Of a DNA stretch of 59,258 bases, positions 1,273 to 47,053 are shown piece by piece. The DNA comes from an uncultured bacterium (GTDB lineage Bacteria; Hinthialibacterota; Hinthialibacteria; Hinthialibacterales; JAKPRU01), in assembly GCA_964612675.1 (NCBI GenBank), contig CAZTDD010000026.1, positions 1 through 59,258 of the forward strand, read 5' to 3'. The translations under genes were made by a program, and so were the position numbers. Within the stretch, counting starts at the first letter, position 1, and each line of letters opens with the position of its first letter. The notes below the pieces were generated by a model, which did no database searches, was not told where the DNA came from, and saw only the letters and a list, made by a program, of their open reading frames with translations.

Positions 1273-2844
1273 TCATGATTCCGGGACAAACTCGTCCAGT
1301 CGCACCTTTGGGAGCTTCCGTAGAGTTGTATAGGTCGGGGGTTTCTCAGCCTCTATCTTGATCTCTTCGAGACCACGTCGCCGTCGTACCCCCGTATAGA
1401 ACGAATAATCTAGCAGGTACGCTTCATGCGTCTCACCGATTTTGCCGGGGTTAATACTAGGGTGAATCAAGTGGACGAGTCGTAGATCAACCAATTTCTG
1501 AAGGAGTCTGTACCCAGGGTGTCTTGGGTCCTGACGAACAAGAAAAGAGTTCCATTTGTGATCATCGAGGACCAGTCTCTTCAATTTGTCCAAAGCAAAG
1601 CGCAATGATTCACCGTCCTCGGAAGCATCTTGTTCGAGTTCAGCAGATTTTTCTTCTCCAAACTCTCCCACAGCCATGTTCACTTCTTCTATTCCAACGC
1701 GTTTTCTCCTATGCTGGATGGCAAATCCCACCGACCGTTCGAATAGCTGGAGGAAATCTCGAGGGACGCCCGCTGAACACCACACCAACCGATCAATCGC
1801 CCGGTCATGCATAATTTGGTTCGTTCTGGAGAACCCGCACTCTTTCAAAAACTGCTTCAGAACGGAAACAAGGTGCTCGCGAGCCGAAGCCGGATCGACA
1901 AGTGTTAGGTCCAAATAAATGTGCTGAACGTCGCCGGGCTGCTGCAACCCCATTCGCTGTGCGGGTTGATATAGACAAATGAAATTCTTGACGCCGGCGA
2001 TTTTCAGGCATCCCCCTGTTCCTTTCAAGATAGAGTGCAGCAACTCGAACATCTGGGGCTGCAATGCAGAGTCCAGAAGGTGCGCATCGTCCAGAAAAAC
2101 GAAGAGATTTCTGCCTGTTCTCCGGGTGAATCCTCGCACAAGCCTCTTGAGCTCCGGCACAAGTTTGCGAATCGTTGCCACGGAAAGTCTCGACGGAGAA
2201 GAGTTCATCAGGTCTGTGACTTCCCTGTGACCATGGACGAACTCAAGTGGGGCCTCAGTACCATTCCTTTCAAAAGAATCTATACACTCGCCAAAAATCT
2301 CGGCCAGGACTTCTGATATCGCGACTGCGTCGTCTCTACCCTTGTAAGGCTGCAAATCAAGCCAGATAGGGAGATCATTGTTTTGAATCACTTTGCGATA
2401 CGCCGTCAAAATCAAACTTGATTTCCCGACCCCGCGTCGACCTAAGATCGCGTGGTTGACAGGTTGAATAACCTTTTGTTCCTCTCCAGCACGAAAAGGC
2501 ACGAACTCCACCGACACTCCCCTATCGAGGGCATCGCTGGTTATCCGAAGCGTTCGTGAGATGAGAGATCGAAGTAACTGAACCTCCATTGAAGAGATGA
2601 CGTTTGGCACCTTCTCAACCTCGAGACTCAGCCTTCCTCGATACGGATGATCCATCGGCAAGCGGTCATTTATCTCAGCGAGTGCACGTTTGTAAATCGG
2701 AGCGTCGCGCCCCACTCGGAAACGGAGAAACACCTCGGGTCCGGCACGTTCCTCGTCTGTGTCCACATCTCTTATGCCCGTGCGTGCCAGGAATTCACGA
2801 CGGATGTCTTCAACTGATTCCTGCAGAGCGGAGATATTATTCAT
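1273..2844 (-). CDS. AAA+/STAND-like P-loop NTPase (Walker A GRRGVGKSS, Walker B FVFLDDAH)
   Basis: 523 aa. Walker A is near residue 135 and an hhhhDD Walker B about 70 aa later. GAGGAG RBS present. The ATG overlaps the stop of the upstream HEPN gene (ATGA). Confidence 0.7.
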   Translation of the reverse strand: MNNISALQESVEDIRREFLARTGIRDVDTDEERAGPEVFLRFRVGRDAPIYKRALAEINDRLPMDHPYRGRLSLEVEKVPNVISSMEVQLLRSLISRTLRITSDALDRGVSVEFVPFRAGEEQKVIQPVNHAILGRRGVGKSSLILTAYRKVIQNNDLPIWLDLQPYKGRDDAVAISEVLAEIFGECIDSFERNGTEAPLEFVHGHREVTDLMNSSPSRLSVATIRKLVPELKRLVRGFTRRTGRNLFVFLDDAHLLDSALQPQMFELLHSILKGTGGCLKIAGVKNFICLYQPAQRMGLQQPGDVQHIYLDLTLVDPASAREHLVSVLKQFLKECGFSRTNQIMHDRAIDRLVWCSAGVPRDFLQLFERSVGFAIQHRRKRVGIEEVNMAVGEFGEEKSAELEQDASEDGESLRFALDKLKRLVLDDHKWNSFLVRQDPRHPGYRLLQKLVDLRLVHLIHPSINPGKIGETHEAYLLDYSFYTGVRRRRGLEEIKIEAEKPPTYTTLRKLPKVRLDEFVPES

Positions 2845-3341
2845 AGTCTCACTCCTCTTTGCCTAAGATAATCACGGCAAAGGCGAAGAAACTGCCGCGT
2901 CAGCCGTAAGGCGTCATCCGGTTCATGTATGATGTTTCGCCGGACGTCATGCCAAGGCTCATAATCGGCTATGTTCCGGTCTCGCCGCAAATCCGTTGCG
3001 AAACTCGACCATTGAGACCGCTCGGGAAAATCCTTCGGCAGGTCTCCTACTTCCTGGTGGTTATCCTTGACGCAGCCTTCGCTGCAATAGCGAACACTCT
3101 TTGAACTGTTGTATATCGCGTAATAGCAACGAGACAACATAGAGCGCCACTGCCTTCGTGAGCCAGACAGATGCTCGGCTGCCCGAAGGTGCTGCTGAGC
3201 GAGGCGAAACCATCTTTTCGAGATCTCATTTGCGGGTTCCTTTAGCCAGGAGAGATCCACCTCTCCCGCGTATCGAGACAAGATGCGATGGACTTTTTGA
3301 TGGTTTTCCAGCCCGAGAAACTCCGGTCGTTTGTCCCGCAT
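2841..3341 (-). CDS. HEPN-domain protein, paralog of the HEPN at 19965-20351
   Basis: 166 aa. Shares with the other HEPN ORF the blocks L.AAE.L...YYA, D..RxxxDY[ED] and A.[QE]FL...R.YL. The 4-nt overlap couples it to the downstream ATPase. Confidence 0.6.
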   Translation of the reverse strand: MRDKRPEFLGLENHQKVHRILSRYAGEVDLSWLKEPANEISKRWFRLAQQHLRAAEHLSGSRRQWRSMLSRCYYAIYNSSKSVRYCSEGCVKDNHQEVGDLPKDFPERSQWSSFATDLRRDRNIADYEPWHDVRRNIIHEPDDALRLTRQFLRLCRDYLRQRGVRL

Positions 3342-7543: not shown

Positions 7544-9304
7544 TCACGCCATGCCTTCCAGCATTTGGTTTAGTGAAGCGCCCGCGGGCACCATCGGATA
7601 TACGTTCTCTTCCCGAGCCACCCACACATCGATCAGGCAGGGAGAATCGTTACTGAATGCCTCCTGCAATGCCGGTTCGAGCTCGGATCGTGTTTTCACT
7701 TGTCTACCCCACGCCCCGTAAGCCTCCGCCAGCTTGGCAAAGTCCGGCAGATACTCCGCGTCCATCCACGAACCGTGGGACGACGCCCGCCGCGTCAGCT
7801 CCGTTGCGGAGTAATTCTTCTTGTAGAACAGATCCTGCCACTGCCTCACCATTCCCAGCCAGCCGTTGTTGGAAATCACGACTTTCACCGGCAGATTGTA
7901 GTAAACCGCAGTCGCCAGCTCTTGTATGGTCATCTGAAGCGACCCATCGCCCGCGATATCAATCACCATACGGCCGGGGTTGCCCGCCTGAGCGCCGATC
8001 GCCGCCGGGAACCCATATCCCATCGTTCCGAGACCGCCCGACGTCAAGAATGTACGAGGATAGCGGAACGTGTAGTACTGAGCCGTCCACATCTGATGTT
8101 GACCGACCTCGCTGGCCACAATCGCGTCCTCCGGTGCCAGTTTATTGACCATCTCGACCAGATACTGAGGCTTGATTTCGTCGCCTTCCATTCCGTTGTA
8201 CGCCAACGGATGTTGACGTTTCCATTCTTGAACCTGTTTGACCCATTCTTCCGTGTCGCACGGCTCCACGAGCTTGTTCAGATCTCCCAGGATATGCTTC
8301 ACATCGCCCACAAGATCGACATCCACCTTCACATTCTTGCTGATCGACGAGGGATCGATGTCCATATGGATAACTTTCGCATGTGGGGCGAACTCGTCGA
8401 TTTTCCCCGTCACCCGGTCGTCGAATCGCGATCCGGCTGCAATCAGAACATCGCACGCTTGGATCGCCTTGTTGGCATAGATTGTCCCATGCATGCCAAG
8501 CATGTGCACTGAGAGCGCGTGGTTCTCCGGAAACCCACCCAATCCCATCAGCGTGGTGGTCACAGGAATATTAGCTCGGGTAGCGAATAAAAAGAGATCG
8601 TCCGCCGCATTCGAGTTGATCACACCGCCACCCGCATAAACCAACGGCCGCTTCCCGTTTTTGATCAACTCCCACGCTTTTTGTACTTTGTCGAGAGACG
8701 CCGACATCTGCACGTGATAACCGGGAAGATCCGGTTCCGCCGGGTATTCATAATCTTCGAGCGTGCCTTTCTGCACATCTTTCGGAATATCGATCACCAC
8801 CGGCCCCGGTCTGCCCGTCCGGGCAATATGAAAGGCATTCTTAATGATCGGCGCCAATTCCTCCGTGGTTTTGACGAGGTAGTTGTGTTTTGTAACCGGA
8901 CGCGTAATGCCGACCACATCCGCCTCTTGGAACGCATCGTTCCCGATCAGCGGTGTCGGTACCTGCCCCGAAATCACCACAAGAGGAGTCGAGTCCATGT
9001 ACGCGTTCGCCAAACCGGTCACGGTGTTCGTGGCTCCCGGGCCGGATGTGACGAGAACCACACCAACCTTCCCGGTCGAACGCGCATATCCCTCGGCCAT
9101 GTGCATCGCGCCCTGCTCGTGACGAACAAGAATGAACTTTATCTTCTTCGACATGTTGATCTGGTCAAATACGTCGATGATGGCGCCTCCGGGAAAACCG
9201 AACACCACCTCGACGCCTTCCTTTTCCAGGGCGTCAATCACAATCTCGCATCCGCGCGCCGCACGCTTCGCATCCAGTTCTTGAGCAGTTTCCGTGGTTG
9301 CCAT
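7544..9304 (-). CDS. ilvB: acetolactate synthase large subunit (TPP-dependent)
   Basis: Full-length ALS/TPP enzyme similarity. The track start at 9310 has its RBS abutting the codon, so the second ATG (9304) was chosen. Confidence 0.93.
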   Translation of the reverse strand: MATTETAQELDAKRAARGCEIVIDALEKEGVEVVFGFPGGAIIDVFDQINMSKKIKFILVRHEQGAMHMAEGYARSTGKVGVVLVTSGPGATNTVTGLANAYMDSTPLVVISGQVPTPLIGNDAFQEADVVGITRPVTKHNYLVKTTEELAPIIKNAFHIARTGRPGPVVIDIPKDVQKGTLEDYEYPAEPDLPGYHVQMSASLDKVQKAWELIKNGKRPLVYAGGGVINSNAADDLFLFATRANIPVTTTLMGLGGFPENHALSVHMLGMHGTIYANKAIQACDVLIAAGSRFDDRVTGKIDEFAPHAKVIHMDIDPSSISKNVKVDVDLVGDVKHILGDLNKLVEPCDTEEWVKQVQEWKRQHPLAYNGMEGDEIKPQYLVEMVNKLAPEDAIVASEVGQHQMWTAQYYTFRYPRTFLTSGGLGTMGYGFPAAIGAQAGNPGRMVIDIAGDGSLQMTIQELATAVYYNLPVKVVISNNGWLGMVRQWQDLFYKKNYSATELTRRASSHGSWMDAEYLPDFAKLAEAYGAWGRQVKTRSELEPALQEAFSNDSPCLIDVWVAREENVYPMVPAGASLNQMLEGMA

Positions 9305-9690
9305 GATCATTCCTCCGGCCTTCTGAATACTTGAGGATAAACCTCCGTCCCTATAAATGAAAAAGGTCGCGGACGTCTTTTCGCCCGCGACCTTTGGGAT
9401 TGACTCTTGGCTCGACCTTTATCTCCCATCGGTCGCGGACGCACGTATGGATACAACAACGACGACCGCGCCGAGAGAAAGACTATGGGGAAGAAAGGCC
9501 GATGTTTCCATGATTACTGGCGATACTCTAACGAACGGGCTGAATCGAGTCAAGTTAGGGGGCTTGTTTTTGAAATTTGTCAAGCGTGCTGGACGCCGCG
9601 TTCGTTTTGACGGACAATTGCATCGGACAGTCCGAGACCGGATTCGGCTGTCTTTGTACATAAGCTCTGCGTCACAGGAGGAACCTGAAC

Positions 9691-10992
9691 ATGTCAAGAC
9701 GCGCTATCGTTTGTAGTGGGATCGTCATAGTACTCGCCGGGATGGTCACGGCCCAGCAGCTCGAGCCGGTCGTTGTGGTCACGGATACTGCGGGACCTCA
9801 GCAGTTTCCGGATATTGCGTACGGCAGCGTAGGCAACGAATTCCTCGTTGTCTGGGAACAGGTGGACGACAGCGACAACTACGACATCTACGGTCGTATG
9901 CTGGACGGAACCACCGGAGAACCAAAGGGAGATGTATTCCCGATTCTCGTCGACGATTCGGTCGATCTCGAAGCGCCCGAAGTCGCGTACAATCCCGATT
10001 CCGACCAGTTTATTGTGATCTGCCGTGTGGCAAGCACAATCGATGTCTACGGTCAGCTCGTGGCAAACGGGAAACGCGCGGGGACGGACTTCTTCATCGC
10101 AAAGTCATCCGGACCGACCTTCTTCGATCCGGCGGCGCGTGCACGGGTCGCTTCGATCAGCTATAAGCCCACGGGACAGGAGTGGTTTGTCGGATTGACG
10201 CCCAACGAGAGTGCGGCATACATGTTCTTGGCAAGCGATGGCGAACCGGTAACCGATCTAATTCAGAATCTCGGCAGCGGAACGAATCCGGCAACTGCGT
10301 GGAGCACCGGCAGCGACGTCGGGATCGTTGCGTACGAAGACCGTCGGTCGCGAGATACTGGAGCGGAGAACCTCTCGTGCTTCCTAACGGATGAGGCCGG
10401 GAATCCGCTTCACGATGAACCGATCCTGCTGCGCGATCAGGCCAACGCGGAAGAGTCCCCTCGGGTCGCGTACAACAGCGATGACGATCAGTTCCTGGTG
10501 ATCTGGGATGAGCGGCTCAGTTGGGCGGACGACAGCGGCGGAGCCCGCACGACGGACACGTTCGGCCAGATCGTTGGCACTGACGGAACGCTGATCGGCG
10601 AGCCGATCCCCATCGAAGCATCCACACCATACACCCTGAGACAAGATGTCGATTACAGTCCGCAGGCGGGCGTGTATCTCGTTGTCTGGAAAGGCGATGA
10701 CGTAAACAGTTTCGCATTTGCGGATATCAATGGTCGCATGGTGAATCGAGATGGATCGATGCCCGCCGAGAAGTTTTTGATTTACGACAGCGGCGATGAC
10801 GACACCTCCGATCCGGATAACGAACAATATTACGACGAATCCAAGCTACCGGTAGTCGCTGCAAATTCCGCCGGTGAGTTCTTTGTCGTGTGGGAGGAAG
10901 GCGGAACGAATCGAGATCCACAGGACAGGGACATCATGGGCCGGTTTGTCAGCACGCAGAGCGGGGTCGTGGGCTGGGAACTGTTGAAGTGA
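9691..10992 (+). CDS. secreted protein with at least 4 internal repeats ([VA]AYN.D.DQF.V.WE)
   Basis: Signal peptide MSRRAIVCSGIVIVLAGMVTAQQ. Repeated blocks are PDIAYGSVGNEFLVVWEQ, PEVAYNPDSDQFIVICR, PRVAYNSDDDQFLVIWDE and PVVAANSAGEFFVVWEE. AGGAGG RBS. Confidence 0.7.
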   Translation: MSRRAIVCSGIVIVLAGMVTAQQLEPVVVVTDTAGPQQFPDIAYGSVGNEFLVVWEQVDDSDNYDIYGRMLDGTTGEPKGDVFPILVDDSVDLEAPEVAYNPDSDQFIVICRVASTIDVYGQLVANGKRAGTDFFIAKSSGPTFFDPAARARVASISYKPTGQEWFVGLTPNESAAYMFLASDGEPVTDLIQNLGSGTNPATAWSTGSDVGIVAYEDRRSRDTGAENLSCFLTDEAGNPLHDEPILLRDQANAEESPRVAYNSDDDQFLVIWDERLSWADDSGGARTTDTFGQIVGTDGTLIGEPIPIEASTPYTLRQDVDYSPQAGVYLVVWKGDDVNSFAFADINGRMVNRDGSMPAEKFLIYDSGDDDTSDPDNEQYYDESKLPVVAANSAGEFFVVWEEGGTNRDPQDRDIMGRFVSTQSGVVGWELLK

Positions 10993-11070
10993 AAAGGTTG
11001 TGAAACAGGAAGGCACAAAGGAGATACGAAGACACGAAAAGGCAAGGAAACCGACTCGAAAAAAGGCCGG

Positions 11071-11321
11071 ATGACATATACAGTCAAAATAACAAACCGG
11101 GCGAAAAGAGACCTGAAGTCAATCCCCGCAAGGGATAGAGATGTCATCGCTGAAGGAATCGACGGACTCGGAACCGATCTTCGTGGGAACGTCAAACGGT
11201 TGACCCGTTATAGCTTTGAGTATCGATTACGGATCGGTGACTATTGAGTACTATTTGACGTTGAGAACAGCGTTATCATTATTCACAGGATTGCGTTGCG
11301 TCGAGACTTATACCAAGGGCT
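11071..11321 (+). pseudogene. RelE/ParE-family toxin disrupted by an in-frame TGA (codon 59) and a lost native stop
   Basis: MTYTVKITNRAKRDLKSIPARDRDVIAEGIDGLGTDLRGNVKRLTRYSFEYRLRIGDY-stop-VLFDVENSVIIIHRIALRRDLY matches the RelE/ParE N- and C-terminal consensus. TGA at 11245-11247. The frame then runs on past the antitoxin ATG. Confidence 0.65.
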
Positions 11322-11335
11322 GATGGAGGCAGACC

Positions 11336-11629
11336 ATGAGAAAACTGGAATTGACTCCGAGGGTTTTGGAAAAAGACGGCAAGAAGATGTTTGTTGTTTT
11401 GCCTTACGAACAGTTCACTGAATTGGCGGAGCGCCTGGAGGAATTGGAAGACCTGTGCGACTTGAGAGAGGCAAAACTGGAGGCTGTCGGCGAGGATTAC
11501 CTCTCATGGGAGAGTGTGAAAGAGGAATTGGCAATTGGAACGGGTGATGCACAGAATATTAAAGTCACCAGTCAGAGTTTCTACATAGGTAAGTATGAGG
11601 TGACGCAGGCGCAATGGGAACTGGGCTGA
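11336..11629 (+). CDS. Phd/YefM-family antitoxin with a C-terminal fragment of an FGE-sulfatase domain
   Basis: KMFVVLPYEQFTELAERLEELEDL..SWESVKEEL resembles the Phd/YefM family. The last ~20 aa (KVTSQSFYIGKYEVTQAQWE) are a divergent copy of VTISKPFYIGKYEITQAQWK from the FGE gene at 46098-46934. Confidence 0.6.
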   Translation: MRKLELTPRVLEKDGKKMFVVLPYEQFTELAERLEELEDLCDLREAKLEAVGEDYLSWESVKEELAIGTGDAQNIKVTSQSFYIGKYEVTQAQWELG

Positions 11630-11658
11630 TTGACATCCTTTATCTCCCGATAGATAAT
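11630..11658 (+). promoter_or_regulatory. sigma70-like promoter TTGACA-N17-GATAAT(CCT) for the vapBC pair
   Basis: TTGACA at 11630-11635, GATAAT at 11653-11658. AAGGAGGG RBS at 11744-11751 before the ATG at 11761. Confidence 0.5.
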
Positions 11659-11760
11659 CCTAATTGTTGATTTTCAATTTAACGAGTTTTCTTCGGGGGA
11701 TTGTGTGTGCATTGCCGACGCGGTTTCATGATAGACAAAGACTAAGGAGGGAATAGGATC

Positions 11761-12195
11761 ATGCCAATTAGAGTCTTGTTGGACATACCTGAGAGCGCGT
11801 TCTCACTGTTTTCCGGAGACGCGGACGAGTTCGTTCGGGAGATGCGGATTGCAGCGGCTGTGAAATGGTTCGAGATGGGGAAACTCTCCGAGTCGAAAGC
11901 GGCGGAGCTGACTGGAATGAGTCAGGAGGAGTTTGTCCATACTCTGCGTCGGTACGGTGTGTCGCCATTCCAAAGCGATTCGGTGGGAGAAACGCGGGAA
12001 GAAAACTCCAGCCAATTTCCGCATGACTTCTGGCAATCGCCGACTATCGAGGAATTGGCCGCTGCGCAAGGAGTGGGACCTGTTCAAGATGTCGGGTCAC
12101 TCAGTGGAACCTGGCCGGGAGAACCTAACGACGGTTTCGAAGAAACCATCGGGGATCTCCGGCAGGAAGACGTGATGCGAGAAAGCCGCCCATGA
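11761..12195 (+). CDS. UPF0175-family VapB-like antitoxin with a C-terminal extension
   Basis: IRVLLDIPESAF...AVKWFEMGKLSESKAAELTGMSQEEFVHTLRRYGVSP fits the UPF0175 signature. 4-nt ATGA overlap with the downstream PIN gene. Confidence 0.7.
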   Translation: MPIRVLLDIPESAFSLFSGDADEFVREMRIAAAVKWFEMGKLSESKAAELTGMSQEEFVHTLRRYGVSPFQSDSVGETREENSSQFPHDFWQSPTIEELAAAQGVGPVQDVGSLSGTWPGEPNDGFEETIGDLRQEDVMRESRP

Positions 12196-12608
12196 GCGTC
12201 TCCAGGATTATCCTCGATACGAATGTAGTGAGTTACCTTATGCGTGGCGGACTGATTGCGGAGGCATACGGAAAACGTGTACAGGGCCGCGTCGCAGCCA
12301 TATCGTTTATCACCGTCGGTGAGCTGTATTACGGTGCGGAGAACGCGAACTGGGGTGCAGATAAGAGGCAGCAGTTGGAGGAGACTCTCCAGAATTTCGT
12401 TGTCGTTCCCTTCGATAACGAGATCGCGCGCGCCTATGGTAGGATCACCGTTCAGAGAAAGCGAGCCGGAAGGCCGATCTCTTTACATGATGCCTGGATT
12501 GCGGCCTGTGCCGTAAGGCATGATCTGCCGTTGCTAACACACAATCCTAGAGATTTTCAACACATCAGCCACCTGCAGGTAGTAACCGAAACGATCCAGG
12601 CACATTGA
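12192..12608 (+). CDS. vapC: PIN-domain ribonuclease toxin VapC
   Basis: ILDTNVV N-terminal acidic motif and PIN fold residues (D at 9, E ~43, D ~100). Confidence 0.85.
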   Translation: MSVSRIILDTNVVSYLMRGGLIAEAYGKRVQGRVAAISFITVGELYYGAENANWGADKRQQLEETLQNFVVVPFDNEIARAYGRITVQRKRAGRPISLHDAWIAACAVRHDLPLLTHNPRDFQHISHLQVVTETIQAH

Positions 12609-12816
12609 GAATTGATGGATCGAAAGCGAAGTGTACCCCGGCGATCGGCGTCCGAATACTATCTGAATCCGGATGGTCCGGATGGAAGGCTATTCGGGTC
12701 AAATTTTCTCCAGGGGCGTTGCCCTGGCTATCGTACTTCACCCCGTTGGGGTGAAACACAAGAAATCCCGCCTCTTGTGCGTTTCGCACGCGGGTAACGA
12801 TCCATTACACCGCAAC

Positions 12817-12854
12817 TCTTCTGAAATATCCTATGTCTTCTGAAATAGCCTATT
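12817..12854. repeat. tandem 19-bp direct repeat TCTTCTGAAATA[TG]CCTAT overlapping a -35 element
   Basis: Two adjacent copies immediately upstream of, and overlapping, TTGACA at 12853. Confidence 0.6.
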
Positions 12855-12882
12855 GACACGCTGCATCCGGGGGAGGGATAAT
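12853..12882 (+). promoter_or_regulatory. near-consensus sigma70-like promoter TTGACA-N18-GATAAT(CCT)
   Basis: TTGACA 12853-12858 and GATAAT 12877-12882. The same GATAATCCT extended -10 occurs at 11653. Confidence 0.5.
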
Positions 12883-12897
12883 CCTACTGTCATCGAG

Positions 12898-13040
12898 TTG
12901 AGCAAGTAGCGAGTTCGCTGCTGGGAGGGCGAGCCTCCCGGCGAGCCGAAAAGCATACTTTGTTGGGAGGGCGAGCCTCCCGGCGAGCCGGACAGTATCC
13001 GAAACTCGGCTCAGCAGGAGCTTCGCCCTCCCGACTCAAT
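12898..13040. mobile_element. MITE-like ~143-bp element carrying three GGGAGGGCGAGCCTCCCGGCGAGCCG hairpin units (two direct, one inverted), flanked by 9-bp direct repeats G[TA]CATCGAG
   Basis: Hairpin units at 12923-12948, 12965-12990 and, inverted, 13007-13032. Flanking direct repeats at 12889-12897 and 13041-13049. The same unit family recurs at 41262-41476. Confidence 0.45.
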
Positions 13041-13151
13041 GACATCGAGGATAATCCTGCAATTGGATTTCTGTCTTACCCGGAAGCGTTTTCTCAGAGG
13101 GTTGTGTGCTGTTCTGCCTCTGCCTTCCAGATCGTAGGTTTTCCTCCCGCT

Positions 13152-13199: not shown

Positions 13200-13337
13200 T
13201 GCTTTCGCGGCTCTTTCGTGTCTTCGTGTTTCAAGATTCTTCCGGTCTGTGTCGTTGTGCTGCCGCGCACTCTCAATTCCTCTGCACAAAGATCGGTTTG
13301 TCAATCCGTGCCTGTCGGCTCCCAAAAACGTGGTACC

Positions 13338-19964: not shown

Positions 19965-20351
19965 TCAATCTGTTAAAGATTCCAGGTATTTCCTGGCGGC
20001 CATCAGAAACTCACGAGCCTGTTCGAGCATGATCGTGACTGTCTCAGCATCAATGTCCATCTCAGCGTCATAGTCCCCTTTCAGCCTCCGGTCGAACGCA
20101 TCAAGCATCCAGCGATGGAACTTCGGATCGAGAATGCCCGCCTTAGCGAAATGCTCACCATAAGCCGAGTGAACACCGGAGTGTTTGCGATACGTTAGGT
20201 CATGTTGGCGCAGGAGTCCCTGCGCAACATGAAGCATAGCGTAATAAGCACGACCGGCAGCGAATTCTGTATCTCCGTTGTCGTACAGAATCTCGGCGGC
20301 AGCGAGAGCACGTTCGGCTTTCTCCAGAAACCTGCGAGACTCGTATTTCAT
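19965..20351 (-). CDS. HEPN-domain toxin of an MNT-HEPN pair
   Basis: 128 aa, all-alpha. Motif RRLKGDYD. 4-nt overlap with the upstream nucleotidyltransferase. Confidence 0.8.
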   Translation of the reverse strand: MKYESRRFLEKAERALAAAEILYDNGDTEFAAGRAYYAMLHVAQGLLRQHDLTYRKHSGVHSAYGEHFAKAGILDPKFHRWMLDAFDRRLKGDYDAEMDIDAETVTIMLEQAREFLMAARKYLESLTD

Positions 20352-20677
20352 GCTGATATCGCTTCTCCTCGTACGTTCTGGAGAAACATCGTGCCCTCAG
20401 TGTTCCATTGCTGCTCCGAAGTGAAAACCCGGCTGATACTCCTGCCAAATCTCAGTGAAAGTGACGCAATAATGGTGCTTGTCGAGTCGATCTCACGAGA
20501 GTAACTTTCCACACGGTCCAGCACAATCACGACGTCTACGTCAGATTCCCGGCCGGCTTCGTTCCGCGCGCAGGACCCAAACAGATAGACACCCTTCAGC
20601 CGGTCACCATAAACCAGGATAAGCTGCTTTTTGAGTTCATCGAGCAATTGTCGGATCTCTTCATTCATCTGTTCCAT
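20348..20677 (-). CDS. minimal nucleotidyltransferase (MNT) antitoxin
   Basis: GSCARNEAGRESDVDVVIV is the polymerase-beta-type hG[GS]x9-13Dh[DE]h motif. Confidence 0.85.
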   Translation of the reverse strand: MEQMNEEIRQLLDELKKQLILVYGDRLKGVYLFGSCARNEAGRESDVDVVIVLDRVESYSREIDSTSTIIASLSLRFGRSISRVFTSEQQWNTEGTMFLQNVRGEAISA

Positions 20678-32086: not shown

Positions 32087-32165
32087 AGAATTTCTCCAAA
32101 AAGGAATTCCCAGCGATGAATCGCTGGGCTATTATCGTTCGTCCATCGGACGGTCCGTCAGGCTT

Positions 32166-41261: not shown

Positions 41262-41476
41262 ATCCGTCTCGGCTCGGCGGGAGCCTCGCCCTCCCGGGCC
41301 TGTCGCCTTCTGAATTTGGCTCCCCTAGTCCTTCTCGGCTCGGCAGGAGCCTCGCCCTCCCGGGCCTGTCGCCTTCCGGATTTGTCTCACCTAGTCCTTG
41401 AACTCATGTTCGTCTCGGCTCGGCGGGAGCCTTGCCCTCCCGGGCCTGTCGCCTTCCGGATTTGTCTCACCTAGTT
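41262..41476. repeat. three tandem 66-80-bp units, each with a GGGAGGGCGAGGCTCCCGCCGAGCCG hairpin (minus-strand sense), between two operon genes
   Basis: Units start near 41267, 41333 and 41413. Each also duplicates the first ~14 nt (ATGAGTTCAAG) of the downstream gene start. Confidence 0.75.
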
Positions 41477-46097: not shown

Positions 46098-46934
46098 TTA
46101 TGTTGCAGAATGAATCGCCCCTGCGACGCGGAATCCGACATAGTAATAGGAGTTCTCCGGCTTATCCCGATTCCGAAACGCGGACCGGCAACGCCAGGCA
46201 AAACTCACCGCGGTTCCCCCACGCAGTACACGTTCCTCGCCGCTCGCCGGGCCGATCGGATCGATCTGCGGCTTCGCGGGATATATACCGTATAGGTCAT
46301 AACACCATTCGTAAACATTCCCGGCCATATCGTAGAGCCCCCACGCATTGGGTTTCTTGCGCCCAATGGGCTGAATGGTCATCGGTCTGTTGATCTCGCG
46401 GTACCACGCGTACTGTGCGATCTGAAGGTCGTCCGGATCTTCGCCCCAATAATACGCCGTCTCGGTTCCAGCACGGCATGCGTATTCCCATTCGGCCTCC
46501 GTCGGCAGCCGAAATGTGCCAAAGCCCCTTCCATTCAACCGCTGGATGAATGATTGGCAGTCGTTCCAGCTCACGTTGTAGACCGGGACGTTGTTCCCTT
46601 CCCCGTAGTCCCGCGCAGGGTTCGATCCCATCACGCTTTTCCACTGGGCCTGCGTGATTTCATACTTGCCGATGTAGAACGGCTTGGAAATCGTAACCTT
46701 GTGTCGGGGACCTTCTCTTTCGAAATGCCCTTGTTCGCTGGAAGACGACCCCATAATGAAGGTGCCCGCCGGAATCGAGACCATGACGAGCGGCGTCGCC
46801 TCCTCCGGGAGACCCGCGAGTTGGATCGCAACTTCCTTACGCCCGGAGTGTGGATTGACTCCGAGACCGGTTAGCTCCTGTCCCCGGCAGGGCAAAACAA
46901 ATACCAACAACAGTAGTCCGCAAATCCACATCAT
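46098..46934 (-). CDS. formylglycine-generating-enzyme (SUMF1/FGE)-family protein, secreted
   Basis: FYIGKYEITQAQW, RLPTEAEWEYACRAG, GNVYEWCYD and LRGG motifs. Signal peptide from MMWICGLLLLVFVLPC. The track start is a TTG further upstream. Confidence 0.85.
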   Translation of the reverse strand: MMWICGLLLLVFVLPCRGQELTGLGVNPHSGRKEVAIQLAGLPEEATPLVMVSIPAGTFIMGSSSSEQGHFEREGPRHKVTISKPFYIGKYEITQAQWKSVMGSNPARDYGEGNNVPVYNVSWNDCQSFIQRLNGRGFGTFRLPTEAEWEYACRAGTETAYYWGEDPDDLQIAQYAWYREINRPMTIQPIGRKKPNAWGLYDMAGNVYEWCYDLYGIYPAKPQIDPIGPASGEERVLRGGTAVSFAWRCRSAFRNRDKPENSYYYVGFRVAGAIHSAT

Positions 46935-47053
46935 CGTCTTATCGCGCACCAGTCCACTAGCCACGTAATATGTGTCCGTCCTAGTATAGCGGAACCATAC
47001 CAGTTCGATGAAAGTACGCAAGATCTTTGCACATCGGAAAGGAGCCGATCGGC

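What the first reader, a model, noticed from the sequence alone, without database searches (positions are those of the whole stretch)
11071..11629. Decayed RelE/ParE-Phd locus: toxin with an in-frame TGA, antitoxin fused to a fragment of an FGE-sulfatase gene
**Seen in sequence.**
- The toxin ORF has a perfect RelE/ParE N-terminus and C-terminus (..YRLRIGDY | VLFDVENSVIIIHRIALRRDLY), separated by a single in-frame TGA at codon 59.
- It has no native stop; the frame runs into the antitoxin.
- The Phd/YefM-like antitoxin ORF continues for 20 codons that are a diverged copy of residues ~118-137 of the FGE-family gene at 46098-46934.
- The gene order is toxin-first.

**Inference.** The toxin has been inactivated by a nonsense mutation (a classic toxin-antitoxin decay route) while the antitoxin is retained. 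The FGE fragment marks a past recombination or insertion with a paralogous FGE gene. Programmed UGA read-through is a remote alternative.
Basis: seen in the sequence. Interest (0 to 1): 0.5.

Follow-up and report, generated by a model that had tools for sequence, protein, structure and literature searches.

The report
Decayed RelE-type toxin–antitoxin remnant
This is a broken copy of a common bacterial toxin–antitoxin gene pair: the toxin is cut by a stop codon at a catalytic residue and the antidote gene is joined to a scrap of an unrelated enzyme gene, which is an ordinary case of gene decay.

Summary
The toxin frame (11071 onward) has a TGA at codon 59. With Arg there it matches Pfam ParE_toxin full-length. 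All 15 aligned homologs have Arg at that position, and it aligns with catalytic R61 of E. coli RelE. The toxin has also lost a near-invariant His (Leu76) and its own stop codon.

The antitoxin ORF (11336-11629, 97 aa) is a complete copy of a 62-69 aa Phd-like antitoxin plus about 28 foreign residues. Twenty of those residues are the N-terminal motif of the FGE-sulfatase domain.

The TGA is not an assembly error. One independent assembly is 100% identical, and a 99.64% sister strain also carries it. In that sister strain the antitoxin is frameshifted, so the toxin is harmless and the pair is dispensable.

Toxin-first order is native to this subfamily. TGA is a normal stop codon in this contig, and there is no recoding signal.

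The block sits in a mosaic toxin–antitoxin (TA) island next to an intact UPF0175–VapC pair. A related contig has a different TA pair at this position, and an intergenic repeat that is contiguous there is split here around both modules.

Verdict: an ordinary pseudogenised type II TA module with a recombination scar. Interest is low.

The parts
11009..11055 (+). 5' half of an intergenic repeat ('U'). It is purine-rich: GAAGGCACAAAGGAGATACGAAGACACGAAA... Its right edge is the left junction of the inserted TA block.
   Evidence: 90% identical to L012 1153-1183. In L012 it runs straight into the 3' half of U. An inverted copy of its 14-nt core lies at 13214-13227.
11071..11247 (+). Toxin gene, N-terminal part: 58 codons ending in the premature TGA.
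   Evidence: PF05016 scores only 14.3 bits for this ORF alone.
11245..11247 (+). In-frame TGA at codon 59. It replaces the Arg equivalent to E. coli RelE R61. CGA to TGA is the simplest change (inferred).
   Evidence: Arg in 15 of 15 homologs. hhalign to RelE, probability 93.9%. Present in L001 and L011.
11248..11316 (+). Toxin gene, C-terminal homologous part (codons 60-82: VLFDVENSVIIIHRIALRRDLYQ). Leu76 sits where homologs have His.
   Evidence: Alignment A1. Pfam match is full-length only when this part is joined to the N-terminal part.
11317..11421 (+). Read-on of the toxin frame past the point where homologs stop. It has no family homology and overlaps the antitoxin start.
   Evidence: Homologs end at residues 81-84. 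The frame runs on to TGA at 11419-11421. The out-of-frame TGA at 11321-11323 would be restored by removing one G from the GGG run (inference).
11326..11330 (+). GGAGG Shine-Dalgarno sequence, 5 nt upstream of the antitoxin ATG.
   Evidence: Read directly from the sequence.
11336..11629 (+). Antitoxin ORF, 97 aa. Residues 1 to about 69 are a complete short Phd/RelB-like antitoxin. Residues about 70-97 are a foreign tail.
   Evidence: Homologs P0002-P0004 are 62-69 aa and 42-52% identical (alignment A2), and they end where the tail begins. PF02604 scores 16-17 bits, below the gathering score of 29.8.
11561..11620 (+). Scrap of an FGE-sulfatase gene (KVTSQSFYIGKYEVTQAQWE), fused in frame to the antitoxin.
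   Evidence: In an exhaustive search with the tail, 397 proteins reached E<=1e-3, and all 10 sampled were PF03781 proteins. No further FGE homology follows in any frame.
11630..11658 (+). Promoter-like TTGACA-17-GATAAT immediately after the antitoxin stop. It probably serves the next module. The GATAATCCT core lies at 11653-11661.
   Evidence: Homology with L012 begins at 11653.
11761..12608 (+). Neighbouring intact TA module: UPF0175 antitoxin (11761-12195) and PIN/VapC toxin (12192-12608).
   Evidence: PF03683 69.4 bits and PF01850 66.4 bits. VapC NCBIfam hits. 94.6% identical to L012. Unchanged in L001.
12710..12885 (+). 3' half of the U repeat, ending in a second TTGACA-18-GATAAT / GATAATCCT.
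   Evidence: 81-94% identical to L012 1198-1374, where it lies upstream of the UPF0175-PIN module and is contiguous with the 5' half.
46638..46700 (-). The segment of the intact in-window FGE-sulfatase gene (46098-47021) that matches the scrap.
   Evidence: PF03781 scores 173.9 bits for the whole gene.

Best explanation
The locus is a pseudogenised type II toxin–antitoxin module. It belongs to a toxin-first subfamily made of an ~82-aa RelE-type mRNA interferase followed by a ~66-aa Phd/RelB-like antitoxin.

**The toxin cannot be made in active form.**
- Codon 59, the Arg equivalent to catalytic R61 of E. coli RelE, is TGA.
- The resulting 58-aa product lacks the whole C-terminal half, including the equivalents of the catalytic Arg/His and of Tyr87.
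- A near-invariant His is Leu.
- The native stop codon is gone.

**The antitoxin.** Its ORF is still intact in this strain and has a good ribosome-binding site. It has lost its own stop and reads into a ~60-nt scrap of an FGE-sulfatase gene, which is a junction scar left by illegitimate recombination or deletion.

**The setting.** The block lies in a small, low-GC, mosaic TA island. It has no promoter of its own: its left junction is only 15 nt upstream of the toxin ATG.

**Shown:** the lesions, their conservation context, their presence in independent assemblies, the foreign origin of the tail, and the mosaic junctions.

**Inferred:**
- The order of events.
- CGA>TGA as the nonsense change.
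- A one-base G insertion as the cause of stop loss.
- The antitoxin is now neutral rather than selected.
For: **Toxin identity and lesions**
- Frame and TGA.
- PF05016 is full-length (1-89 of 89, 29.8 bits) only when the TGA is bridged.
- 15 of 15 homologs have Arg at codon 59, all but the window have His at 76, and all stop at residues 81-84.
- hhalign of the family to E. coli RelE gives 93.9% probability, with codon 59 aligned to R61 and Tyr81 to Y87.
- R61, R81 and Y87 are required for mRNA cleavage (PMC2807027).
- The closest solved structures are RelE3 (3bpq) and Rv2866 (3g5o).

**Native arrangement**
- Intact relatives L004-L006 have the 82-aa toxin, then the 66-aa antitoxin, with an ATGA overlap.
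- L002 has an 8-nt spacer instead.

**Not an artefact**
- L011 (run SRR7048220) is 100% identical over 10461-11864.
- L001 (run SRR7048224) is 99.64% identical and keeps the TGA.

**Dispensability**
- In L001 the antitoxin has a 1-nt deletion and stops after 32 native residues.
- 5 of the 13 differences between the strains fall within 98 nt of the antitoxin (permutation p 0.0026).
- By contrast, the neighbouring 433-aa ORF shows 5 synonymous and 3 non-synonymous changes.

**Foreign tail**
-.

**No recoding**
- TGA ends 15 of 43 long ORFs.
- The hairpin downstream of the TGA has z = -0.53.

**Mosaic context**
- GC is 46% against 53-58% in the flanks.
- L012 carries a different TA pair at this position and a contiguous U repeat that is split in the window.
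Against: - The antitoxin ORF is intact in this strain, has a good Shine-Dalgarno sequence, and is identical in a second assembly. A residual function as an orphan antitoxin or regulator is therefore not excluded.
- Apart from the three lesions, the toxin keeps all 16 invariant family residues. Decay is recent, and no divergence-based test of relaxed selection on the toxin is possible, because there are zero differences between the two strains in 11071-11334.
- The frameshift in L001 rests on one Logan contig, without read-level inspection.
- No close ortholog (closer than ~52% identity) with an intact toxin was found, so the ancestral state is not known directly.
Confidence: 0.85

Rival explanations
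1. Orphan antitoxin kept by selection. The toxin is dead, but the 97-aa antitoxin is still expressed and useful. It could neutralise homologous RelE toxins that arrive on mobile elements (anti-addiction), or act as a transcriptional regulator. The FGE-derived tail would be a tolerated appendage.
For: - The ORF is intact with a GGAGG ribosome-binding site and is identical in L011.
- All 19 residues invariant among the four aligned family members are retained.
- A weak promoter-like site lies inside the toxin remnant at 11255-11282.
Against: - The sister strain L001 has the antitoxin frameshifted after residue 32.
- Strain differences are concentrated in this gene.
- The block has no recognisable native promoter or operator. 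Its left junction is 15 nt before the toxin ATG.
Confidence: 0.15
2. Programmed UGA read-through or recoding yields a low level of full-length toxin, as a way of regulating it.
For: Both halves of the toxin are still well conserved and in the same frame.
Against: - UGA sits at the catalytic Arg, so any read-through amino acid other than Arg would cripple the enzyme.
- His76 is Leu and the native stop is absent, so the read-through product would be 116 aa with a nonsense tail.
- TGA is a standard stop in this contig.
- The downstream hairpin is unexceptional, z = -0.53.
- None of the 15 aligned homologs has a stop at that position.
- The sister strain tolerates loss of the antitoxin.
Confidence: 0.02
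3. Sequencing or assembly artefact: the TGA, or the fusion to the FGE scrap, is an error or a chimeric join in the metagenome-assembled contig.
For: The window is a metagenome-derived contig. Chimeras and consensus errors do occur in such assemblies.
Against: - Two Logan assemblies from different runs reproduce both the TGA and the antitoxin-FGE junction: L011 at 100% identity and L001 as a distinct 99.64% haplotype.
- The fusion protein's C-terminal 61 aa is also recorded as P0001.
Confidence: 0.02
4. The FGE-like tail is either chance similarity or a genuine part of this antitoxin family.
For: The match is short (20 aa). The Pfam score of 16 bits is below the gathering threshold.
Against: - The pairwise match is 16 of 21 positions, E 2e-8.
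- 397 database proteins match the tail at E<=1e-3. The best ones are long proteins with multiple matched stretches, and all 10 sampled are PF03781.
- The only short protein among the best 150 hits is the L001 allele of the same gene.
- The antitoxin homologs end before the tail begins.
Confidence: 0.02

Closest known systems
RelE-family ribosome-dependent mRNA interferases (E. coli RelE; M. jannaschii RelE3, PDB 3bpq; M. tuberculosis Rv2866/RelG, PDB 3g5o), within Pfam PF05016 ParE_toxin
   Same: - About 82 aa in length, with the motifs YRLRxGDYRVLF and HRxxxY.
- Profile alignment to E. coli RelE places the basic residues, the R61 equivalent and the Y87 equivalent in register.
- Paired with a small acidic antitoxin.
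   Different: - Here the gene is broken: a stop at the R61-equivalent codon, His76Leu, and no native stop.
- In this subfamily the toxin gene precedes the antitoxin. This is the reverse of relBE and the same as higBA.
Phd/YefM (PF02604) and RelB-like (PF18506) antitoxins
   Same: - A short acidic protein encoded next to a RelE-type toxin.
- Weak but consistent matches to the second half of the Phd/YefM profile.
   Different: - All family members score below Pfam's gathering threshold and cover only profile positions ~25-68.
- The window copy carries a ~28-aa foreign C-terminal tail.
Degenerate or orphan TA loci described in bacterial chromosomes (toxin pseudogenes with surviving antitoxins). 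This comparison rests on general knowledge of type II TA evolution.
   Same: - The toxin is knocked out first, by a nonsense mutation.
- The antitoxin outlives it and then decays, as seen in the sister strain.
   Different: Nothing essential differs. The in-frame fusion of the antitoxin to a scrap of an FGE-sulfatase gene is an unusual but mechanistically trivial scar.
FGE-sulfatase / SUMF1-like domain proteins (PF03781), for example the in-window gene at 46098-47021(-)
   Same: The 20-aa motif KVT.S..FYIGKYEVTQAQW, which corresponds to profile positions 27-50.
   Different: Only 24 of the 255 profile positions are present. There is no catalytic or metal-binding part, so this is not an FGE protein.

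Membership tests
RelE/ParE toxin (PF05016) | Sequence match to the family profile above the gathering score, over the whole domain | tested here: met
   29.8 bits against a gathering score of 23, covering profile 1-89 of 89. This holds only when codon 59 is read as Arg. 42-51% identity to 15 aligned homologs (alignment A1); the database search lists up to 52%. This establishes descent from the family, not function.
RelE/ParE toxin (PF05016) | Uninterrupted ORF of about 80-95 codons with its own stop codon | tested here: not met
   TGA at codon 59. The frame has no stop at codons 82-84 and runs to 11421. The 58-aa ORF alone scores 14.3 bits, below the gathering score.
RelE/ParE toxin (PF05016) | Catalytic residues equivalent to E. 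coli RelE R61, R81 (or a His general acid) and Y87 | tested here: not met
   The R61 equivalent is the stop codon. The near-invariant His76 is Leu. Only the Y87 equivalent (Tyr81) is encoded, and it lies downstream of the stop.
RelE/ParE toxin (PF05016) | Ribosome-dependent mRNA cleavage, or growth arrest on expression | not testable with these tools
   This needs expression and cleavage assays.
Phd/YefM antitoxin (PF02604) | Profile match above the gathering score | tested here: not met
   16-17 bits for the window protein and 22.8-27.6 bits for its homologs, against a gathering score of 29.8. Only profile positions ~25-68 of 74 are covered. No hit among solved structures with the family profile. 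It is best described as Phd/RelB-like.
Phd/YefM antitoxin (PF02604) | Encoded next to, and co-transcribed with, a cognate toxin | tested here: met
   Intact relatives have a toxin–antitoxin ATGA overlap. In the window the antitoxin lies directly downstream of the toxin remnant.
Functional type II toxin–antitoxin module | Both genes intact, with an autoregulated promoter upstream | tested here: not met
   The toxin is broken. No promoter-like site lies upstream of 11071, and the block's left junction is 15 nt before the ATG. The antitoxin is frameshifted in the sister strain.
FGE-sulfatase domain (PF03781) | Complete ~255-position domain including the catalytic and metal-binding part | tested here: not met
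   Only profile positions 27-50 match, at 16 bits against a gathering score of 23.3. No further homology follows in any frame.
Integron gene-cassette array (considered for the TA island) | attC recombination sites bounding each cassette, and an IntI integrase nearby | not tested
   - Repeats bound the modules: the U halves, the GATAATCCT core and a terminator-like tail.
- No attC model was available to run.
- The few large ORFs scanned gave no integrase, but the window was not scanned exhaustively.

The most novel reading that the evidence does not exclude
The dead RelE/Phd-FGE' block and the intact UPF0175–VapC module could be cassettes moved by an undescribed site-specific or repeat-mediated shuffling process in this uncultured lineage.

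- The process would use a ~220-nt intergenic repeat (U) that is contiguous in L012 but split around both modules here.
- It would also use a 9-10-nt core, GATAATCCT(A), found four times within 1.4 kb and nowhere else in the 59-kb window.
- On this reading the FGE scrap is a junction scar that records a previous landing site.
Probability: 0.1. Interest if true: 0.5.

Novelty: new member of a known kind. Interest (0 to 1): 0.15.

Why it matters
It matters little beyond correct annotation.

- **Annotation.** The locus should be labelled as a relE-family pseudogene plus a Phd-like antitoxin carrying a foreign C-terminal scar. It should not be called an active TA system, a recoding candidate or an FGE-related protein.
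- **Illustrative value.** It is a clean two-strain snapshot of the usual order of TA decay. The toxin goes first, hit at a catalytic codon. The antitoxin follows once it is no longer needed.
- **Possible follow-up.** The surrounding island shows different TA modules swapped between near-identical backbones at repeat-defined junctions. That is only worth pursuing if more genomes of this lineage become available.

Tried and rejected
**Searches that led nowhere**
- Orthologous-locus search with the adjacent 433-aa ORF. Genome contigs gave only 29-50% relatives, and the best one (L007) has no TA at the site. Metagenome contigs gave one 25% relative.
- Word-indexed protein search with the tail alone. 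It returned only the L001 allele, so it was uninformative. Two earlier attempts failed on parameter limits.
- Cluster look-up of the 433-aa ORF. It led to unrelated 57-aa proteins, a clustering artefact, and cost one contig look-up.
- Two viral-contig scans, one for the U repeat and one for a degenerate FGE-motif pattern. Neither gave a hit.
- Paper search for the SRA accessions gave nothing, so the environment and taxon remain unknown.
- Exact look-ups of housekeeping proteins, tried in order to name the organism, failed.
- A profile of the antitoxin family against solved structures gave no meaningful hit.

**Ideas tested and rejected**
- Rfam found no family at the locus.
- Selenocysteine or read-through signals: there is no tRNA in the window and the hairpin is unexceptional. 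Rejected.
- Alternative genetic code: TGA is a frequent stop codon here. Rejected.
- The two flanking ORFs (433 aa and 252 aa) as an inverted duplication: the proteins show no similarity. Rejected.

Full report
**1. What is in the sequence**

The + strand has an ATG at 11071 followed by 58 sense codons and then TGA at 11245-11247. The same frame continues as VLFDVENSVIIIHRIALRRDLYQGLMEADHEK... and does not stop until TGA at 11419-11421. A second ORF, 11336-11629 (97 aa), starts 5 nt after a GGAGG and overlaps that read-on frame.

When codon 59 is read as Arg, the toxin frame matches Pfam PF05016 (ParE_toxin) from profile position 1 to 89 of 89, at 29.8 bits against a gathering score of 23. The 58-aa ORF alone reaches only 14.3 bits.

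**2. The toxin lesions in family context**

A database search returned 140 RelE/ParE-family proteins, at up to 52% identity, nearly all 80-86 aa long. I aligned 15 of them with the window sequence. That alignment shows three lesions:
- Column 59 is Arg in every homolog.
- Column 76 (the motif HRxxxY) is His in every homolog but Leu in the window.
- The homologs all terminate at residues 81-84, where the window has no stop.

All 16 invariant columns are otherwise retained, so the damage is recent.

A profile comparison of the family with E. coli RelE gives 93.9% probability. It puts codon 59 opposite R61 and Tyr81 opposite Y87. R61, R81 and Y87 are the residues whose mutation lowers or abolishes ribosome-dependent mRNA cleavage (Neubauer et al. 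2009, PMC2807027). The closest solved structures are RelE3 of M. jannaschii (3bpq, E 1.5e-5) and Rv2866 of M. tuberculosis (3g5o).

The translated product is a 58-aa stub with no active site.

Two points here are inference:
- CGA>TGA is the simplest change that would create the nonsense codon.
- The sequence TAC CAA GGG CTG A carries an out-of-frame TGA at 11321-11323. Removing one G from the GGG run would give ...YQG*, a C-terminus like that of the 83-aa homologs P0007 and P0010. A single-base insertion would therefore explain the lost stop.

**3. Gene order is native**

Contigs encoding the antitoxin's best full-length homolog (L004, L005, L006) have an 82-aa ParE_toxin gene followed by a 66-aa Phd-like gene with an ATGA overlap. 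L002 has the same order with an 8-nt spacer. Toxin-first is thus how this subfamily is built.

**4. The antitoxin and its tail**

Only four proteins matched the 97-aa ORF. Three are 62-69 aa antitoxins, 42-52% identical in the alignment, and they align with residues 1 to about 69 and then end. The native antitoxin is therefore complete, and about 28 residues have been added.

Family membership is weak. PF02604 scores 16-17 bits for the window protein and 22.8-27.6 bits for the homologs, all below the gathering score of 29.8 and covering only the second half of the profile. "Phd/RelB-like" is the honest label.

The tail is FGE-derived:
- Tail residues 76-95 match the in-window FGE-sulfatase protein in 16 of 21 positions, at E 2e-8.
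- They match Pfam FGE-sulfatase positions 27-50.
- An exhaustive HMMER search of 1.84 billion representatives with the 32-aa tail found 397 proteins at E<=1e-3. The best were long proteins with several matched stretches, and all ten that I scanned are PF03781 proteins.
- The only short protein among the best 150 hits was the sister-strain allele of this same gene.

At the DNA level the similarity to 46638-46700(-) is about 70-84% over 60-90 nt. Nothing FGE-like follows in any frame. It is a short, diverged paralog scrap whose donor cannot be named.

**5. Not an artefact, and not needed**

- The exact 97-aa protein is encoded on a Logan contig from run SRR7048220 (L011). That contig is 100% identical to window 10461-11864, including the TGA.
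- A Logan contig from run SRR7048224 (L001) covers 9137-12753 at 99.64% identity. It keeps the TGA, the read-on frame and the FGE tail.
- In L001 the antitoxin has R9K and a 1-nt deletion (GAGCGCC>GAGGCC) that ends the protein after 32 native residues.
- Five of the 13 differences between the strains fall within 98 nt of the antitoxin (permutation p 0.0026).
- By contrast, the adjacent 433-aa ORF shows 5 synonymous and 3 non-synonymous changes.

A strain that tolerates loss of the antitoxin cannot have an active cognate toxin.

**6. Recoding is excluded for practical purposes**

- TGA terminates 15 of 43 long ORFs in the contig.
- No tRNA gene is present in the window.
- The hairpin downstream of the TGA is no more stable than shuffled controls, z = -0.53.
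- A read-through product would carry a non-Arg residue at the catalytic position, Leu76, and a 34-aa nonsense extension.

**7. Context: a mosaic TA island**

The block is AT-richer than its flanks, at 46% GC against 53-58%. Immediately downstream are a consensus-like promoter (TTGACA-17-GATAAT, 11630-11658) and an intact UPF0175–PIN/VapC pair.

An ENA contig (L012) carries that pair at 94.6% identity. Upstream of it, L012 has a different TA module: a 73-aa ORF plus a YafQ-like toxin of 94 aa.

In L012 an intergenic repeat is contiguous. Its 5' half matches window 11009-11039 at 90%. Its 3' half matches window 12710-12885 at 81-94%. In the window, these halves are separated by 11056-12709, which is both TA modules together.

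It follows that the RelE block begins only 15 nt before its ATG, with no promoter-like site upstream. The FGE scrap sits exactly at the seam between the two modules. I read it as a recombination or deletion scar.

A more distant relative of the backbone (L007, 49% identity in the 433-aa ORF) has no TA genes at this position.

**8. Verdict**

The amendments are:
- Toxin-first order is native to the subfamily.
- The antitoxin is not demonstrably retained by selection.
- The FGE donor is unknown, and the quoted residue numbers are wrong.
- Read-through is excluded.

Interest is low. The only thread with some novelty potential is the repeat-bounded swapping of TA modules in this lineage. Two contigs are not enough to resolve it.

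Noticed in passing
window 11653-11661, 12204-12212(-), 12877-12885, 13050-13058: The 9-mer GATAATCCT occurs four times in the 59-kb window, all within 1.4 kb around the UPF0175–PIN module (0.37 expected by chance). Two copies are the -10 elements of near-consensus promoters. One lies, in reverse orientation, in PIN codons 4-9. A 16-nt perfect inverted repeat links 12203-12218 and 13044-13059.
   Followed up: partly
window 11009-11055 and 12710-12885; L012 1153-1374: An intergenic repeat of about 220 nt is contiguous in the related contig L012 but split in the window around both TA modules. Relative to this repeat, the UPF0175–PIN module lies downstream in L012 and upstream of the repeat's 3' half in the window.
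   Followed up: partly
window 12886-13049 and 13050-13108: A 164-nt segment made of GC-rich REP-like repeats lies between two GATAATCCT copies. Directly after it comes a diverged third copy of the UPF0175–PIN leader (about 75% identity, with gaps), with no genes behind it. It looks like a vestige of another module interrupted by a small repeat element.
   Followed up: partly
window 12923-12948, 12965-12990, ~13007-13035(inverted), 41270-41441(-): The GC-rich repeat GGGAGGGCGAGCCTCCCGGCGAGCCG has five copies at up to 3 mismatches, in two clusters, plus a more diverged inverted copy. None is expected by chance. It generates spurious ORFs of the 'ARREARPP' type.
   Followed up: no
window 11026-11039(+) and 13214-13227(-): A perfect 14-nt inverted pair, ACGAAGACACGAAA, brackets the whole TA island. 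Each copy lies in a purine-rich stretch just downstream of the stop codon of a flanking ORF (433 aa on +, 252 aa on -). The two ORFs are not similar to each other.
   Followed up: partly
L002 590-860: In a relative of this TA subfamily the toxin reading frame is complete, but ATC stands where the ATG start is expected, and the gene caller did not call it. This may be another toxin on its way out.
   Followed up: no
L012 2374-2399 and 2973-2993: The terminator-like tail after the PIN gene (AAATCCGGATGGTCGAGATG...) recurs about 600 nt further on, after the next small ORF and at the contig end. This suggests that successive small modules share a 3' repeat (read).
   Followed up: no
window 19965-20677(-) and 2841-3341(-): There is a HEPN plus nucleotidyltransferase (MNT) pair and a further weak, sub-threshold HEPN match (20.4 bits, gathering score 22). 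The contig is TA-rich and is otherwise chromosomal, carrying ilvBHC, yebC and ATP sulfurylase.
   Followed up: no
window 32109-32152(+): The only Rfam hit in the window at gathering threshold is Acido-Lenti-1 sRNA, at 37.6 bits against a gathering score of 37.
   Followed up: no
window 11761-12195: The UPF0175 antitoxin is 144 aa. The Pfam domain covers only residues 9-73, leaving a ~70-aa C-terminal extension (SDSVGETREENSSQFPHDFWQSPTIEELAAAQGV...) with no family assignment. The extension is conserved in L012.
   Followed up: no
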